From a virus (lineage: Duplodnaviria > Heunggongvirae > Uroviricota > Caudoviricetes): a stretch of DNA of 37,783 bases. The translations under genes and the position numbers were made by a program. Shown piece by piece: positions 1 to 25,317 of the stretch (the first letter of the stretch is position 1; the number at the start of each line of letters is the position of its first letter). Where the stretch lies: the IMG/VR virus record IMGVR_UViG_3300029190_000005; one strand, written 5' to 3'. Under the pieces are notes generated by a model. The model searched no databases and was not told the origin of the DNA. It was given only the letters and a program-made list of their open reading frames with translations.

Positions 1-75
1 AATGAAGTGAACGGTATTTCCCGCGTGGTGTATGACATCAGCGGCAAGCCGCCAGCTACCATTGAGTGGGAATGA
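1..75 (+). CDS. guaA: 3' end of host GMP synthase-like gene (partial, host flank)
   Basis: Frame-1 translation ends ...NEVNGISRVVYDISGKPPATIEWE* with stop at 73-75; matches the GuaA C-terminus as I recall it. Not database-checked. Confidence 0.5.
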   Translation, partial: NEVNGISRVVYDISGKPPATIEWE

Positions 76-123
76 TTAACAGCTAACTCATAGCAAATCA
101 TTCCTATTCAGATGCCAACTCAA

Positions 124-148
124 CCCTCTGTTTTTGCAGAGGGTTTTT
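124..148 (+). terminator. Rho-independent terminator after host gene
   Basis: Hairpin CCCTCTG (124-130) / CAGAGGG (137-143) followed by TTTTT (144-148). Confidence 0.5.
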
Positions 149-203
149 GTTTTTATGTATTCATTTCTATTCACTCTACACCATATTTTTCGGCGGTACA
201 GGT

Positions 204-239
204 GACGGTATTACCTTAAAGGTATACTCTCATACCGTC
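204..239. promoter_or_regulatory. Nested inverted repeats upstream of integrase, including an imperfect TTACC-N5-GGTAt site (211-225)
   Basis: GACGGTAT (204-211) pairs with ATACCGTC (232-239); TTACCTTAAAGGTAT at 211-225 differs from the window-wide palindrome family by one base. Confidence 0.35.
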
Positions 240-267
240 ATGAAAATGGTTTCTATACGGGTGAATT

Positions 268-1518
268 GTGCTTACCGATACAAAATTAAAAAACCTCAAG
301 CCGCAGGACAAACTGTACAAGGTCTCCGATCGTGACGGGCTGTATGTAGCTGTGCTTACGTCAGGCACGGTCTCATTTCGTTATGACTACCGTATCAACG
401 GTCGCCGCGAAACACTGGTAATCGGGCAGTATGGGCGTGACGGTATCAGCCTGGCAGAAGCGCGGGAAGAACTGATTGCTGCAAAGAAGCTGCTTAAAGC
501 AGGCCAGTCACCGGCTGCGGCTAAACGTGACGGTATCAAAAAGATTCGTGGTGCCGAAACGTTTGCGGTACATACCGACAGTTATATGAAACACGTCATC
601 CTGGCTGAAAGTACCCGCGCAATGAAGCAGGCAGTGATCGACCGTGACATACTTCCGGTTCTTGGCAACAAAATGATGGCTGAAATTACCACATCGATGG
701 TTCGTGATTTGTGTGACCGGATTGTCGAACGCGGTGGCCGGGCAACAGCAGTGCAGGCCAGGGAGATCATCAGCAGCGTATACCGTCACGCCAATGACCG
801 TGGTCATGGTTTGTTTAATCCTGCGGCTGACATTAAGCCTTCGTCTATCGCCATATTTAAACCACGAGAGCGAACACTGACACCAGAAGAAATTGGCCTG
901 TTCTTCCGCACGTTGGATGCCATTGGTGCTATGGGCACTATGAAAATGGCTTTAAAACTGGTGCTTATCACTATGGTTCGTAAGGGCGAATTCACCAATG
1001 CAACGTGGGATGAAATAGATTTTAAAAAATGGACATGGACAATTCCTTCAGACCGCATGAAGGGAAGCCGGGCGCATGTTATTTACCTGCCTAAACAGGC
1101 TCAGGATATATTGGTCGGGTTGCAGATGTGCGCTGGTGGAAGTGAATATCTGGTTCCTGGTCGTTACAATTTCCGGAAGCCATTATCTAATGCCGCGCTG
1201 AACTCTCTGATCGACAGAACGGTGAAAATAATAAATGAAGATGGTGAGCATATTCAGGATTTCACCGTACACGATATGCGCCGTACAGCCAGTACGTTGT
1301 TGCATGAGGCTGGTTATCCTTCAGACTGGATTGAAAAGGCTCTGGCACATGAGCAGAAAGGTGTGCGCGCCGTATATAACAAAGCGGAATACGCCAGACA
1401 GCGCGCCTACATGTTGCAGCAGTGGGCCGATATGATAGATTCCTGGATTAACGGGGAGCATACGGATCTGATTCCGTTCTCCCCGTCGAAGTTTGAGAAG
1501 TGGATGGCGAGGGAATAA
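268..1518 (+). CDS. Tyrosine recombinase / phage integrase (P4-like)
   Basis: 416-aa ORF with GTG start; N-terminal arm-binding-like region (LYVAVLTSGTVSFRYDYRINGRRETLVIG) and C-terminal catalytic region with HDMRRTASTLL and a tyrosine near the C-terminus; sits at the prophage-host junction. Confidence 0.9.
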   Translation: MLTDTKLKNLKPQDKLYKVSDRDGLYVAVLTSGTVSFRYDYRINGRRETLVIGQYGRDGISLAEAREELIAAKKLLKAGQSPAAAKRDGIKKIRGAETFAVHTDSYMKHVILAESTRAMKQAVIDRDILPVLGNKMMAEITTSMVRDLCDRIVERGGRATAVQAREIISSVYRHANDRGHGLFNPAADIKPSSIAIFKPRERTLTPEEIGLFFRTLDAIGAMGTMKMALKLVLITMVRKGEFTNATWDEIDFKKWTWTIPSDRMKGSRAHVIYLPKQAQDILVGLQMCAGGSEYLVPGRYNFRKPLSNAALNSLIDRTVKIINEDGEHIQDFTVHDMRRTASTLLHEAGYPSDWIEKALAHEQKGVRAVYNKAEYARQRAYMLQQWADMIDSWINGEHTDLIPFSPSKFEKWMARE

Positions 1519-15743: not shown

Positions 15744-15907
15744 GAACTGGAAGCAATGAGTTATGCCTTCCGTGGCTGTACTGGTTTACAGCATGAAGTC
15801 ATCGCAATGGCGTCCTGCTGTAAAAAGGGCGGTGATAGTCCTTCAAGGGAAACAGTCACCGCCAATCCCCTGGAACTTCTGGCATCACGGTCCTTAGGCG
15901 TGATTCT

Positions 15908-15983
15908 GGCGTGGCATGCAGGATTCGAACCTGCGACCAACCGCTTAGAAGGCGGTTGCTCTGTCCAACTGAGCTAATGCCAC
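15908..15983 (-). tRNA. tRNA-Arg (anticodon UCU)
   Basis: Minus-strand 76-nt sequence GTGGCATTAGCTCAGTTGGACAGAGCAACCGCCTTCTAAGCGGTTGGTCGCAGGTTCGAATCCTGCATGCCACGCCA folds by hand into a cloverleaf: 7-bp acceptor stem, D-arm GCTC/GAGC, anticodon stem ACCGC/GCGGT with loop CTTCTAA, T-arm GCAGG-TTCGAAT-CCTGC, encoded CCA. Confidence 0.85.
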
Positions 15984-21145: not shown

Positions 21146-21162
21146 GCCTCGCGAATCAGACA

Positions 21163-21183
21163 AGGGGCTTCGGCCCCTTTATT
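21163..21183 (+). terminator. Terminator-like hairpin between head and tail gene blocks
   Basis: AGGGGC-TTCG-GCCCCT followed by TTATT; short T-run, probably partial. Confidence 0.35.
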
Positions 21184-21201
21184 GCAGGAGTATAGAAACT
21201 T

Positions 21202-21807
21202 ATGGCCTCTGTAGTAGAGATCTGCAATCGTGCGCTGTCCAATATTGGCAACAGCCGCAGTATTAACAGCCTGACGGAAGCCAGCAAGGAAGCGGGGGAA
21301 TGTTCGCTGCACTTTGAGGCCTGCCGTGATGCTGTGCTTTCTGATTTTGACTGGAACTTTGCTACCAAACGCGTGGCGCTTGCAGATACGAGCAATCCAC
21401 CGCCTGACTGGGAATATGCGTACCAGTACCCGTCCGATTGTCTGCGCATTACTGAAATTATGCTTCCTGGTGTACGCAATCCAACAGCAGCAATGCGCGT
21501 TCAGTACGAAGTTGGTGCAGACACCAACGGAACAGGAAAGTTGATCTACACAGACCAGCCGCAGGCATGGCTCAAGTATGTATCTCGCGTTTCAGATGTG
21601 AACATGTTTGATGCCATTTTTATGGAGGCGTTGGCCTGGCGTCTTGCGGCAGCCATTAACATGGCGCTGACTGGGAATGCAGACCTCGGTACGTTTGCCC
21701 TCAATATGTACAATCGCGTGATTCTTAGTGCTGGCTCGCATAGCCAGAATGAATCACAGGAACCACAGCCACCGGTTGACGAGTTTACCATTGCGAGGTT
21801 GTCCTGA
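21202..21807 (+). CDS. Tail tubular protein A-like (adaptor)
   Basis: 201 aa, immediately upstream of the nozzle-like gene, matching podovirus gp11/gp12 order and size. Confidence 0.5.
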   Translation: MASVVEICNRALSNIGNSRSINSLTEASKEAGECSLHFEACRDAVLSDFDWNFATKRVALADTSNPPPDWEYAYQYPSDCLRITEIMLPGVRNPTAAMRVQYEVGADTNGTGKLIYTDQPQAWLKYVSRVSDVNMFDAIFMEALAWRLAAAINMALTGNADLGTFALNMYNRVILSAGSHSQNESQEPQPPVDEFTIARLS

Positions 21808-24278
21808 TGGCTATCAGTTGGATCCAGCCCAGCTTTGCCGGTGGTGAGATTGGACCGTCGTTGTACGGACGTATCGACATGGCGAAGTACCAGGTGGCAT
21901 TGCGCAAGTGCGATAACTTTATCGTGCGGCAGTATGGCGGCGTTGAGAATCGACCAGGTACGCGTTTTGTCGGTGCCGCAAAATACCCAAATCGGAAATG
22001 CCGCCTGATCCCGTTCCAGTTCTCGACGGTTCAGACCTATGCTCTGGAGTTCGGACACCAGTACATGCGCGTTATCAAAGATGGTGCGTTGGTGCTGAAC
22101 AGCAGCAATGTTATTTATGAAATTGCCACGCCATATACTGAAGCCGATCTGTTCCGAATTAAATTCACGCAAAGCGCCGACGTGCTTACGCTGGTTCACC
22201 CGGCATACCCGCCGAAAGAGTTGCGCCGCTACGCGCATGACAACTGGCAACTGGTTGATGTGGTAACGAAGAACGGGCCATTTGAAGATATCAATATTGA
22301 CGAGTCAGTGACGGTTTATGCCAGCGCCAGCACCGGGACAATTACGTTAACGGCAAGCGCCTCTATTTTTGGCGCGGAGCAGGTAGGCAAATTGTTCTAT
22401 CTGGAACAGCCTGCAGTGGATTCAGTGCCGGTATGGGAAACCAGTAAGAGTACGTCGATTGGCGATATTCGCCGTGCAGACAGTAATTACTATCGCGCCG
22501 TTACAGCAGGCAAAACAGGCACTTTGCGCCCTTCGCATACAGAAGGCACATCATGGGATGGCTGGGGCGGCTCCGGTGATGATGATACTGGCATTGAGTG
22601 GGAGTATCTGCACAGTGGTTTTGGCATTGCCCGTATCACTGCTGTAAACGGCACTACTGCAACTGCCGAGGTGATTTCCTATATCCCTTCGTAGGTCGTT
22701 GGCGAGGATAATGCCAGCTATAAATGGGCTAAATATGCCTGGAACAGTGTTAATGGTTATCCTGGCACTGTTGTTTATTATCAACAACGTCTTTACTTCG
22801 CCGCATCGACTGCGTTCCCTCAGACTATCTGGGCCAGCCGTACCGGGGATTATAAGGATTTTGGCAAAAGCAATCCTACGCAGGATGACGACAGAATTAT
22901 CTACACCTATGCCGGGCGTCAGGTTAATGAGATCCGCCACCTGATTGATGTTGGTTCGCTGGTGGCGCTGACTTCCGGAGGTGAGTACGTCATCACCGGC
23001 GACCAGAACAAAGTGTTAACCCCATCATCATTTGCATTCAGCTCTCAGGGATCAAATGGCTCAAGCAACGTCCCACCAATTGCTGTGGCGAATATTGCTC
23101 TGTTCGTCCAGGAGAAAGGCAGTGTTGTCCGTGATCTGGCCTACTCATTCGATGTTGACGGCTATCAGGGGAACGACCTTACTATCCTTGCCAATCATCT
23201 TTTTCAGAAGCACAGCATTGTTGACTGGTGCTTCTCTATTGTCCCTTACTCCAGCGCCTTCTGCATTCGTGATGACGGTAAATTACTGGTGATGACCTAT
23301 TTGCGTGATCAACAGGTTTTTGCATGGGCACCACAGTCCAGTACCGGAAAATATGAAAGCACATGCAGTATCAGCGAAGGCAATGAAGATGCGGTGTATT
23401 TCGTCATTAACCGAACCGTTAACGGGCAAACAGTGAGATACATCGAGCGACTGTCCAGCCGTTTATTTACCAGCGATGAAGATGCTTTCTTTGTTGATTC
23501 TGGCCTTAGCTATGATGGAAGAAATACGTCTGACAGAACGATGACCATCACTGGTGGTTCTGGTGAATGGGATTACCGTGCGGAATATACAATCAGTGTT
23601 TCTGGTGGTGCGTACTTCACCAGTAGTGATGTCGGCGCGCAACTACAGTTCCCTTATACCGGAACTGATCCTGATACTGGCGATGAAGTGTCAAAAGAAT
23701 TACGTTGCGACATTATTTCTGTAACCAGCAATACCGCAGTAGTGGTTCGTGCTAACAGGAACGTCCCGCCATCCCTCAGGAATGTGGCCACCACGAACTG
23801 GCAGATGGCGCGCCGGACATTTGGCGGCTTGTCTCATCTTGAAGGCCAGACCGTAAACATCCTCTCTGATGCGAACGTGGAACCACAAAAAGTGGTTTCC
23901 GGAGGTGCCGTCACGCTGGAATCACCGGGGGCTGTTGTGCACATCGGCCTGCCAATAACTGCTGAATTCGAAACACTGGATATCAACATTAACGGACAGG
24001 AAACGCTGCTGGACAAAAAACAGGTGATCCCGTCCGTTACTCTGGTTGTGAATGCCAGTCGCGGCATCTGGGCGACTACGCCCGGCGGTAAATGGTACGA
24101 ATATCCACAGCGTGAATTCGAGTTCTACGATGATCCTGTTGATGATGCTACCGGAAAAGTAGAAGTGAAGCTGGACAGTAACTGGGGCAAAAACGGGCGT
24201 GTAAAAATCCGTCAGCTTGACCCGTTGCCGCTGTCTGTTCTTGCCGTTATTCCTCGCCTTACTGTTGGGGGATTCTGA
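21807..24278 (+). pseudogene. Tail tubular protein B-like (nozzle) gene interrupted by one in-frame TAG at 22692-22694
   Basis: One continuous frame from 21807 to 24278 (824 codons) broken only by TAG at 22692-22694 (...AEVISYIPS*VVGEDNASYKW...); the N-terminus MAISWIQPSFAGGEIGPSLYGR resembles podovirus gp12-type proteins. Confidence 0.6.
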
Positions 24279-24742
24279 TGGTCGATGTTCAAATTATTCC
24301 CGCTACCGAAGAGCATCTTCAGATGATTTTGCCGGATGTTCGTCAGGCTGATATTGACGAACTGTATGCGGTATCGCTGATGACTACCGAAGATGCGCTG
24401 CGTGTTGGTCTGCGCACTGCGACTATGGCCTGGTCAGGATTTGCGAACGGAGAACTGGTAACCATGTTTGGCGTATCTCCGGCGTCAATGATCGGTGGCA
24501 ATGGTACGCCCTGGCTGGTAGGAACCAGCCGTATTGAAAAATATCAGAAGACATTTCTGCGCCACTGCCGCCCTGTATTGCAGCAGATGCTGGCAGTTTA
24601 TCCGCGCCTGGAAAACTACGTCGACGAGCGAAACCATGTTGCCAAAGCATGGCTGCACTGGCTTGGATTCAGGCTTGAAGAAGCCGCGCCTTATGGTGCT
24701 CTTGGTCTTAATTTCCACAGATTTCACATGGAGAGAAAATAA
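24278..24742 (+). CDS. Virion-associated protein (internal virion protein A-like position)
   Basis: 154 aa, translationally coupled (TGATG) to the nozzle gene; assignment by synteny only. Confidence 0.4.
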   Translation: MVDVQIIPATEEHLQMILPDVRQADIDELYAVSLMTTEDALRVGLRTATMAWSGFANGELVTMFGVSPASMIGGNGTPWLVGTSRIEKYQKTFLRHCRPVLQQMLAVYPRLENYVDERNHVAKAWLHWLGFRLEEAAPYGALGLNFHRFHMERK

Positions 24743-25317
24743 TGTGCGATCCGGTTATTGCTGGTGGCGCAATGCTCGCCATGAGTGGCATTCAGGCATA
24801 CACCCAGTACCAACAGGGAAAGTATGCCTCGAAGGTTGCAGAAGCGAACGCAGATATAGCCACAGCTCAGGCAAATGATGCAATAAACAGAGGTAACGCT
24901 GAAGCTGAGCAACGACGCAGAGAGACCCGACAGCGGCTTGGTACACAGGCGGCGACAATGGGGGCTACCGGCGCTGATTTATCTACAGGTAACGCGCTGG
25001 ATATATTTGGCGACACTGCCCAGTTTGGCGCTCTTGATTCGCTGACGACGGTGAATAACGCGCAACGCGAGGCTTACGGTTATCAGGTTCAGGCTGCCAA
25101 CTATAAAGCAGAAGCCAGTTCAGCCCGTAAACAGGGGAATGTAGGAGCAGCAACAACATTGCTCACTGCGCCTCTGAAGGCATACGGTGCGTACCAGATG
25201 TTTGGTGGGACGTGGAGTCCGTTCTCTAAAGGAAGTACATCTAGTGGTGGGACGCCAATGTTATCTAACTCAGGTTTTATGAATTCTGACTCCCGATTCA
25301 AAATAGGAGGTTACTGA
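24742..25317 (+). CDS. Internal virion / ejection protein (gp14-like position)
   Basis: 191 aa, Ala/Gly/Gln-rich with an N-terminal hydrophobic segment; by synteny. Confidence 0.45.
   Translation: MCDPVIAGGAMLAMSGIQAYTQYQQGKYASKVAEANADIATAQANDAINRGNAEAEQRRRETRQRLGTQAATMGATGADLSTGNALDIFGDTAQFGALDSLTTVNNAQREAYGYQVQAANYKAEASSARKQGNVGAATTLLTAPLKAYGAYQMFGGTWSPFSKGSTSSGGTPMLSNSGFMNSDSRFKIGGY

What the first reader, a model, noticed from the sequence alone, without database searches (positions are those of the whole stretch)
22692..22694. Single in-frame amber codon in the nozzle-like tail gene
The region 21807-24278 is one continuous frame of 824 codons except for TAG at 22692-22694. The ORF track shows this as two ORFs (21807..22694 and 22962..24278) plus a spurious out-of-frame ORF, but the same frame is open on both sides of the TAG. 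Either a recent nonsense mutation has inactivated an essential tail gene (a defective prophage, consistent with the IS in the tail spike), or it is a sequencing error, or the gene is expressed through amber suppression.
Basis: seen in the sequence. Interest (0 to 1): 0.6.

Follow-up and report, generated by a model that had tools for sequence, protein, structure and literature searches.

The report
Private amber mutation in prophage nozzle gene
A single C-to-T change has turned a glutamine codon into a stop codon in the tail-nozzle gene of an E. coli prophage whose tail-spike gene is also broken by an insertion sequence, so this is ordinary decay of a prophage and not a new biological mechanism.

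Summary
21807-24278 is one frame of 824 codons, interrupted only by TAG at 22692-22694 (codon 296). The gene is the tail nozzle of a phiV10/epsilon15-like (Uetakevirus) prophage integrated next to guaA. The intact protein aligns end-to-end with a solved single-chain "Tail Nozzle" (PDB 8ck1_A, E=1e-217).

The ancestral codon is Gln: CAG in phiV10 and epsilon15, CAA in Tyrion. Window 1-37693 is identical to the E. coli Ecol_881 prophage, and over 31 kb to the sewage-isolated phage EC.W1-9, except for one base: C->T at 22692.

The T allele is rare:
- 0 of 515 complete E. coli genomes that carry the site
- 0 of 50,697 phage records
- 1 of 87 IMG/VR contigs

That one contig, plus ENA and Logan assemblies, match the window exactly and share its IS3-family insertion in the tail spike. 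A sequencing or assembly error is therefore unlikely. A natural split or programmed readthrough is rejected.

The prophage encodes no suppressor tRNA, has no other in-frame TAG, and offers no usable restart before GTG 22962.

Verdict: a recent, lineage-private nonsense mutation in a defective prophage. It is ordinary and of low interest.

The parts
21807..24278 (+). Tail nozzle gene (homolog of epsilon15 gp12 / phiV10p15, T7 gp12-like 'tail tubular protein B'). Here it is a pseudogene with one internal amber codon.
   Evidence: intact 823-825 aa CDS in relatives. (PDB 8ck1_A 'Tail Nozzle', residues 2-822, E=1e-217). (phrog_376 tail protein).
22692..22694 (+). In-frame amber codon TAG (codon 296). 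It is derived from CAG (Gln) by a C->T transition at 22692.
   Evidence: The T allele is absent from 515 E. coli genomes that carry the site and from the phage records. IMG/VR has 86 C against 1 T.
21807..22694 (+). Truncated N-terminal product, 295 aa (about 36% of the nozzle protein).
   Evidence: The exact product was found in other assemblies.
22695..22961 (+). 89 codons (297-385) left untranslated. There is no in-frame ATG/GTG/TTG in this stretch. It corresponds to the best-conserved block of the alignment with the solved nozzle.
   Evidence: no in-frame start. (alignment). (profile gap 275-363).
22962..24278 (+). C-terminal 438-codon ORF called from an internal GTG (Val386 of the intact protein). 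No Shine-Dalgarno-like sequence lies upstream, so it is probably not translated on its own.
22699..22944 (+). Spurious out-of-frame ORF (81 aa, TTG) inside the nozzle gene.
   Evidence: The region is covered in the other frame by the conserved nozzle homology.
21202..21807 (+). Adaptor / gp11-like tail protein. Its stop overlaps the nozzle start (ATGA-type junction).
24278..25317 (+). Two internal virion (ejection) protein genes, translationally coupled to the end of the nozzle gene (TGATG overlap). They are candidates for a polar effect of the amber codon.
   Evidence: The polarity is inferred, not tested.
36042..37693 (+). 5' part of the tail-spike gene (GH28-related / pectate-lyase-like), truncated by the IS insertion. 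It is 2130 nt in intact relatives.
37694..37783 (.). Terminal 90 nt of an IS3-family element (IS1203/IS629-like). The contig ends inside it.
   Evidence: The junction is absent from all complete E. coli genomes. In IMG/VR it is present only on the contig that also carries the TAG.
1..1518 (+). Left prophage end: the 3' end of host guaA (1-75) followed by the phage integrase (268-1518).

Best explanation
The window is a whole metagenome-assembled contig carrying a phiV10/epsilon15-like (Uetakevirus) prophage of E. coli integrated beside guaA. Its tail nozzle gene has a recent point mutation, C->T at 22692, which changes Gln296 (CAG) to amber (TAG). Ribosomes should stop after 295 of 823 residues. 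The next in-frame start is 89 codons further on and has no ribosome-binding site, so no functional nozzle is made. The long untranslated stretch may also reduce expression of the translationally coupled ejection-protein genes downstream; that step is inferred. The same lineage has an IS3-family element in its tail-spike gene. It therefore carries two independent lesions in tail genes that are probably essential and is, very probably, a defective prophage undergoing ordinary decay. Shown: the mutation, its direction, its rarity, its linkage to the IS, and the identity of the gene. Inferred: loss of particle production and the polarity.
For: The single internal TAG in an otherwise open 824-codon frame is confirmed.

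The gene is intact, at 823-825 aa, in phiV10, epsilon15, Tyrion, EC.W1-9 and the E. coli prophages. The codon at this site is CAG, CAG and CAA in phiV10, epsilon15 and Tyrion, and CAG in EC.W1-9 and DFL.5.

Window 1-37693 differs from the Ecol_881 prophage by exactly one base, at 22692. It differs from EC.W1-9, a phage isolated from sewage, by the same single base over 31,110 nt. The 25-kb search gives a bit score that corresponds to one mismatch in at least 15 genomes.

Seed-restricted 55-nt probe: the T allele gives 0 hits and the C allele gives 515 genomes. There are 0 hits among the phage records. IMG/VR has 86 C against 1 T.

The TAG allele recurs, with 100% identity over 20.9-21.3 kb, in JGI/IMG-VR, ENA and Logan assemblies that have different contig ends. 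The IS/tail-spike junction occurs only on the TAG-bearing IMG/VR contig and in no complete genome.

The full-length protein is homologous to a single-chain solved Tail Nozzle, and both halves fall in one PHROG. There is no in-frame start before 22962 and no Shine-Dalgarno-like sequence there. The only tRNA in the prophage is tRNA-Arg(TCT). The nozzle TAG is the only internal stop among 44 CDS.

Sporadic independent breakage of this gene is seen elsewhere, for example an internal stop at codon 772 in L027; 49 of 51 IMG/VR copies are intact.
Against: No reads were available, so heterogeneity within the sample, or a systematic error shared by assemblies of the same reads, cannot be strictly excluded. 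The JGI dataset 3300045988 is a pooled collection, and the ENA and Logan records may derive from one sample.

The host genome is unknown, so an amber suppressor cannot be excluded. Basal UAG readthrough would most likely insert Gln and so recreate the wild-type protein, and a virion probably needs only about six nozzle subunits.

That the only substitution in 37.7 kb is a nonsense change has a prior of only 3.6% (5.4% for C>T/G>A). This could hint at selection for inactivation instead of neutral decay.

The essentiality of the gene is taken from knowledge of T7 gene 12, not tested here for Uetakevirus.
Confidence: 0.87

Rival explanations
1. Sequencing or assembly error: the true sequence is CAG and the gene is intact.
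For: The change is a single base, and no curated complete genome or phage record has it. The assemblies that share it may come from the same reads. In one other scaffold (L011) the site lies inside a run of N.
Against: At least four assemblies with different contig boundaries (37,783, 26,053, 25,965 and 25,344 bp), made by different pipelines (JGI/IMG-VR, ENA, Logan), give TAG with 100% identity across more than 20 kb. A consensus substitution error at a site that is not a homopolymer is rare in short-read assemblies.
Confidence: 0.04
2. The gene is still expressed, either through amber suppression (a host supE/glnV-type suppressor) or through leaky near-cognate readthrough. Both would insert Gln and give the exact wild-type nozzle at a low level.
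For: The ancestral residue is Gln, so a Gln-inserting suppressor would restore the wild-type sequence; this follows from established knowledge of supE. The tail hub is hexameric, so few copies are needed (PMC12391199).
Against: The prophage has no suppressor tRNA. TAG is a real terminator for another prophage gene (28064-31453), and there are no other in-frame TAGs. The allele is private to one lineage instead of conserved. To my knowledge, natural E. coli isolates rarely carry amber suppressors. The tail spike is broken by an IS anyway, so restoring the nozzle would not restore infectivity.
Confidence: 0.05
3. A naturally split nozzle (two genes), or a programmed/recoded stop that is a normal feature of this phage group.
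For: Gene callers report two ORFs. Two small PHROG families (phrog_20269, phrog_15566) look like N- and C-terminal fragments of this protein.
Against: The stop is absent from the 515 E. coli genomes carrying the site, from 86 of 87 IMG/VR contigs, and from phiV10, epsilon15 and Tyrion. The solved homolog is a single chain that spans both halves. There is no start codon or RBS for a second gene until 89 codons later, which would delete the most conserved block. The fragment PHROGs extend past residue 296 in both directions, so they do not mark a split at this site.
Confidence: 0.01
4. The lesion was positively selected and is not neutral: the host lineage benefited from disabling virion production (prophage domestication). 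On this view both differences from the intact relative hit tail genes for a reason.
For: Both of the two differences from the intact prophage, over 37.7 kb, are disabling. The chance that a random substitution is nonsense is 3.6-5.4%.
Against: With two events there is no statistical power. Once one lesion exists, the second is neutral. Lesions in lysis or regulatory genes would protect the host better than tail lesions, because tail-less induction still kills the cell (inference). 49 of 51 related IMG/VR copies keep the gene intact.
Confidence: 0.08

Closest known systems
Tail nozzle / tail tubular protein B of podoviruses (T7 gp12-type; epsilon15 gp12, phiV10p15; solved homolog PDB 8ck1_A 'Tail Nozzle')
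   Same: There is full-length sequence homology: residues 2-822 against 9-828 of 8ck1_A, E=1e-217. The synteny is the same: adaptor (gp11-like), then nozzle, then internal virion proteins. The gene is 98% identical in DNA to phiV10 and 77% to epsilon15.
   Different: This copy carries an amber codon at residue 296 and can encode only a 295-aa fragment.
Classical amber (sus) mutants of phage structural genes (for example T7 gene 12 amber mutants), CAG->TAG and suppressible by supE
   Same: It is the same kind of mutation: a single C->T converts a Gln codon to UAG in a tail gene that is probably essential. A Gln-inserting suppressor would restore the wild-type protein. This comparison rests on established knowledge.
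   Different: It arose naturally in a gut metagenome lineage, not by mutagenesis in the laboratory. No suppressor host is known, and it is accompanied by an IS disruption of the tail spike.
Defective (cryptic) prophages of E. coli that decay by point mutation and IS insertion
   Same: The element is integrated at a chromosomal site (guaA side). It has a nonsense mutation in one structural gene and an IS in another. Related copies show other, independent lesions.
   Different: The decay is at a very early stage. Apart from these two lesions, the 37.7 kb is base-for-base identical to intact prophages and to a sewage-isolated phage.

Membership tests
Podovirus tail nozzle (T7 gp12-like / tail tubular protein B) | Full-length sequence homology to an experimentally solved nozzle protein | tested here: met
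   phmmer against PDB: 8ck1_A 'Tail Nozzle', E=9.8e-218, query residues 2-822 against chain residues 9-828. phrog_376 'tail protein' matches both halves. There is no Pfam family.
Podovirus tail nozzle (T7 gp12-like / tail tubular protein B) | Gene order: adaptor (gp11-like) upstream, internal virion / ejection proteins downstream | tested here: met
   phrog_394 tail protein lies upstream, and phrog_308 and phrog_418 internal virion proteins lie downstream. The order is the same in epsilon15, phiV10 and Tyrion.
Podovirus tail nozzle (T7 gp12-like / tail tubular protein B) | Hexameric beta-propeller nozzle fold assembled under the adaptor | not tested
   No structure prediction was run. The hexameric tail hub of epsilon15 is taken from PMC12391199.
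Podovirus tail nozzle (T7 gp12-like / tail tubular protein B) | Uninterrupted reading frame encoding the whole protein | tested here: not met
   TAG at codon 296. This copy is a pseudogene of the family.
Programmed stop-codon readthrough / stop-codon reassignment | The stop codon is conserved at the same position in homologs | tested here: not met
   Zero T against 515 C among E. coli genomes. IMG/VR has 86 C against 1 T. phiV10, epsilon15 and Tyrion have CAG, CAG and CAA.
Programmed stop-codon readthrough / stop-codon reassignment | Phage-encoded suppressor tRNA and/or many in-frame TAGs across the genome | tested here: not met
   The only tRNA is tRNA-Arg(TCT). There is one internal stop in 44 CDS, and TAG terminates the gene at 28064-31453.
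Naturally split (two-gene) nozzle | The second half has its own start codon and RBS directly after the stop, and homologs are split at the same place | tested here: not met
   The first in-frame start is GTG 22962, 89 codons downstream, with no Shine-Dalgarno-like sequence. Homologs are single CDS.
Amber (sus) conditional-lethal mutation suppressible by a Gln-inserting suppressor | Single-base change from a Gln (CAG) codon to UAG | tested here: met
   C->T at 22692 is the only difference from the relatives.
Amber (sus) conditional-lethal mutation suppressible by a Gln-inserting suppressor | A permissive host carrying an amber suppressor | not testable with these tools
   The host genome is not part of the window. 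The contig ends at guaA on one side and in an IS on the other.
Defective prophage | Integrated in the chromosome, with inactivating lesions in genes needed for virion formation | tested here: met
   The guaA-integrase junction is at the left end. There is an amber codon in the nozzle gene and an IS in the tail spike.
Defective prophage | Failure to produce infectious particles on induction | not testable with these tools
   This needs an induction and plaque assay.

The most novel reading that the evidence does not exclude
The amber allele is not simply dead. One version: low-level Gln readthrough of UAG recreates the exact wild-type nozzle, so the gene is down-tuned instead of lost. Another version: the stable 295-aa N-terminal fragment acts as a dominant-negative decoy that poisons tail assembly of superinfecting Uetakeviruses, which would give the lysogen a new kind of prophage-encoded interference. 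Neither version is excluded by the data, and neither has any positive support.
Probability: 0.03. Interest if true: 0.5.

Novelty: already known. Interest (0 to 1): 0.1.

Why it matters
It matters little beyond annotation. The two ORFs at 21807-22694 and 22962-24278 should be annotated as one nozzle pseudogene with an internal stop, and the prophage should be flagged as probably defective. It is a clean snapshot of the first steps of prophage decay: one SNP and one IS insertion away from a sequence isolated as a phage from sewage. That may be useful as an example or for strain tracking, because the TAG plus the IS junction form a lineage marker found in several gut metagenome assemblies.

Tried and rejected
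1. My first 61-nt probe could not separate 'TAG plus one flanking SNP' from 'CAG with no SNP'. I replaced it with a 55-nt seed-restricted probe and ran a positive control.

2. L009 (Logan SRR15095371) came back as an exact 295-aa hit, but it is a false positive. It has CAG, and the contig happens to end two bases into the codon.

3. L011 carries the identical 438-aa ORF, but the TAG site lies in a 100-N scaffold gap, so it is uninformative. L012 has CAG plus a 2-nt indel, which is a different lesion or an assembly error.

4. The 249-aa N-terminal fragments (P0005, P0015) suggested a Trp250 nonsense allele. Probes for TGA and TAG at that codon found nothing in the complete genomes.

5. The 438-aa variant P0018 (E. 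coli 908675, 88 contigs) could not be looked up, and none of the IMG/VR loci encode it. Its upstream lesion remains unknown.

6. A Dcm (CCWGG) deamination hotspot as the cause of the C->T was rejected: the mutated C is not in a Dcm site.

7. TAG reassignment was rejected.

8. Scans of metagenome contigs and genome contigs for the TAG 41-mer found nothing.

9. Literature searches for PDB 8CK1 and for epsilon15 nozzle genetics gave nothing specific.

Full report
**Observation.** Translating window 21807-24278 on the + strand gives 824 codons. There is a single internal stop, TAG at codon 296 (22692-22694), and the terminal TGA.

**What the gene is.** The region is 98% identical in DNA to Escherichia phage phiV10, and 77-81% identical to Salmonella phage epsilon15 and Enterobacter phage Tyrion, all of genus Uetakevirus. 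In those genomes the homologous gene is one CDS of 823-825 aa annotated 'tail protein' (epsilon15 gp12, phiV10p15). It lies between a gp11-like tail/adaptor gene and the internal virion protein genes.
- The repaired protein aligns over residues 2-822 with the solved 830-residue 'Tail Nozzle' chain 8ck1_A (E=9.8e-218).
- Pfam has no model for it.
- In PHROGs the two halves hit the same family, phrog_376 'tail protein', at profile positions 2-274 and 364-712. The neighbours are tail protein and internal virion protein families.

So this is a single-chain podovirus nozzle gene, and it is not naturally split in two.

**What the window is.** Window 1-37693 is colinear with the prophage of E. coli Ecol_881, which sits beside guaA. 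Window 1-75 is the end of guaA and 268-1518 is the integrase. The last 90 bases (37694-37783) are the terminus of an IS3-family element (IS1203/IS629-like), present in thousands of copies in E. coli genomes. It interrupts the GH28-related tail-spike gene, which starts at 36042 and is 2130 nt long in Ecol_881. The exact-sequence look-up of the 295-aa product reports a longest carrying contig of 37,783 bp, which is the window's length. The window is therefore a whole assembled contig that begins at the attachment-site side and breaks inside the IS.

**Direction and age of the mutation.** At the TAG position, phiV10 and epsilon15 have CAG and Tyrion has CAA, within a conserved ...IPSQVVG... motif. 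Across the whole 2472-nt gene the window differs from phage EC.W1-9 and from the E. coli DFL.5 prophage by one base only, T instead of C at 22692. Across all 37,693 bases shared with Ecol_881 there is exactly one mismatch, the same base. The same holds over 31,110 bases shared with EC.W1-9, a phage isolated from sewage. A 25-kb query returns at least 15 complete genomes with a bit score that corresponds to one mismatch. The mutation is therefore CAG (Gln296) to TAG. It is very recent, and it sits on a background that is otherwise identical to intact prophages and to a phage isolated from sewage.

**How rare it is.** I used a 55-nt probe with the T at position 28, so that every 28-nt megablast seed has to include the T.

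| Collection | T allele (TAG) | C allele (CAG) |
|---|---|---|
| 5,426 complete E. coli genomes | 0 genomes | 515 genomes |
| 50,697 phage records | 0 records | not probed |
| IMG/VR contigs carrying the 41-mer | 1 | 86 |

The JGI metagenome subset and the GTDB representative genomes have no exact TAG 41-mer. A conserved programmed stop is excluded.

**Is it an error?** The exact 295-aa product, followed by the 438-aa ORF, was found on other public contigs:
- JGI 3300045988 Ga0495776_045930, which is IMGVR_UViG_3300045988_101581 (26,053 bp)
- ENA ERZ28665886, sample SAMEA2737692 (25,965 bp)
- Logan ERR589551 (25,344 bp)
- several similar places that the tool did not display

The displayed contigs are 100% identical to the window over 20.9-21.3 kb, TAG included. 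From their coordinates, all of them end a different number of bases into the same IS. The IS/tail-spike junction 40-mer occurs in IMG/VR only on the TAG-bearing contig and in no complete genome. So several pipelines reconstruct the same two linked lesions, and an assembly artefact is very unlikely. I could not show that the assemblies come from different biological samples, because 3300045988 is a pooled dataset and the ENA and Logan records may share reads. Inspecting the reads remains the formal test.

**Consequence (partly inferred).** Translation should end after 295 of 823 residues.
- There is no in-frame ATG, GTG or TTG between the TAG and GTG 22962, and no Shine-Dalgarno-like sequence precedes that GTG.
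- A restart there would omit residues 296-385, which form the best-conserved block in the alignment with the solved nozzle.
- The genes of this module are joined by overlapping stop/start signals...CTGATGG at 21807 and ...TCTGATGG at 24278.
- By inference, about 1.6 kb of untranslated mRNA could also lower expression of the downstream ejection-protein genes, through loss of translational coupling or Rho-dependent polarity.

In T7, gene 12 is essential for tail assembly. That is established knowledge and was not tested here for Uetakeviruses. Together with the IS in the tail spike, the prophage is most probably unable to make infectious particles.

**Alternatives.**
- *Suppression.* The only tRNA in the prophage is tRNA-Arg(TCT). 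TAG ends another prophage gene (28064-31453), and the nozzle TAG is the only internal stop among 44 CDS. There is therefore no sign of TAG reassignment. A host suppressor cannot be checked. A Gln-inserting suppressor, or near-cognate readthrough, would recreate the wild-type protein, and the hub is hexameric so few copies are needed (PMC12391199). The broken tail spike would still block infectivity.
- *Mutational hotspot.* The mutated C is not in a Dcm site.
- *Chance or selection.* 3.6% of all possible substitutions in this prophage create a premature stop (2.6% of transitions, 5.4% of C>T/G>A). That the only SNP is a nonsense change is mildly unusual but unremarkable. With one SNP and one IS there is no power to argue for selection.

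**Context of decay in relatives.** Of the 51 IMG/VR loci that contain the whole gene, 49 are intact (five of them with in-frame length variants) and two have an internal stop: this lineage, and L027 at codon 772. The protein cluster also holds many N-terminal fragments that end at contig breaks around residues 233-258. It also holds a second 438-aa C-terminal variant (P0018, E. coli 908675) seen on 88 contigs, whose upstream lesion I could not determine. Probes for a Trp250 nonsense allele found nothing in complete genomes. The nozzle gene is thus broken now and then, at different places, in different lineages. That is what ordinary prophage erosion looks like.

**Verdict.** It is a lineage-private, recent CAG->TAG nonsense mutation in the nozzle gene of a prophage that is also disrupted by an IS. 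It is a known kind of event, useful for annotation and as a strain marker, but of low scientific interest.

Noticed in passing
window 37694-37783 (junction at 37693/37694): An IS3-family (IS1203/IS629-like) end is inserted in the GH28-like tail-spike gene. The junction is absent from all 5,426 complete E. coli genomes. In IMG/VR it is present only on the contig that also has the TAG, so the two lesions are linked. Their order is unknown.
   Followed up: yes
window 1-37783: The window's length equals the longest contig recorded for the 295-aa product. It is therefore a whole metagenome contig, bounded by the guaA/attL side and by a repeat (the IS). Other assemblies of the same lineage break at about window 11.7-12.4 kb, inside the ea22-like region that carries frameshifted or partial genes in Ecol_881 (L006 13972-15865).
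   Followed up: partly
window 21146-21201: The gp10-like capsid protein gene (PF21628) lies between the head genes and the adaptor gene in phiV10, epsilon15 and L009. It is absent here, with no tblastn hit anywhere in the window, and a terminator-like hairpin (GGGGCTTCGGCCCCTTTATT) sits in its place. The sewage-isolated phage EC.W1-9 has the same arrangement, so this subgroup seems to do without that protein.
   Followed up: partly
window 15907-15983 (-): The prophage encodes a tRNA-Arg(TCT), which reads the rare AGA codon. It is also annotated in the Ecol_881 prophage. It is not a suppressor.
   Followed up: no
L027 (IMGVR_UViG_2778261504_000023), nozzle gene codon 772: A related prophage has an independent internal stop in the same gene. 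49 of 51 IMG/VR copies are intact.
   Followed up: partly
Protein cluster of the C-terminal ORF: P0018 (ESE15522.1, E. coli 908675): A 438-aa C-terminal ORF variant (3 substitutions relative to the window) is recorded on 88 contigs, including a 5.07-Mb chromosome. This implies a more widespread lineage with a disrupted nozzle gene. The lesion is not the TAG at codon 296 in any complete RefSeq genome, and it remains unidentified.
   Followed up: partly
Protein cluster of the N-terminal fragment: P0003, P0004, P0013 and others: Many 'partial' N-terminal products of 233-258 aa end at contig ends of large E. coli contigs (P0003 alone is on 19 contigs). This suggests a recurrent assembly break, possibly an IS insertion, near codon 238-241 of the nozzle gene in some lineages.
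   Followed up: no
L011 9694-9793 (about window 22487-22754): In scaffold LIUN22-1_SAMN19290940 (ENA ERZ28595016) the sequence is otherwise identical, but a 100-N gap covers exactly the region that contains the TAG site. This could reflect a strain mixture (C and T alleles) in that sample.
   Followed up: no
L009 (Logan SRR15095371_16441), end of contig: The contig of a phiV10-like phage ends two bases into codon 296 ('CA'). Its truncated product is therefore identical to the 295-aa fragment, and the exact-protein look-up returns a false positive.
   Followed up: yes
PHROGs phrog_20269 (374 positions) and phrog_15566 (552 positions): Two small PHROG families match only the N-terminal or only the C-terminal part of the nozzle protein, and they overlap each other. 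They are probably built from broken copies in prophages and are not real separate families.
   Followed up: no
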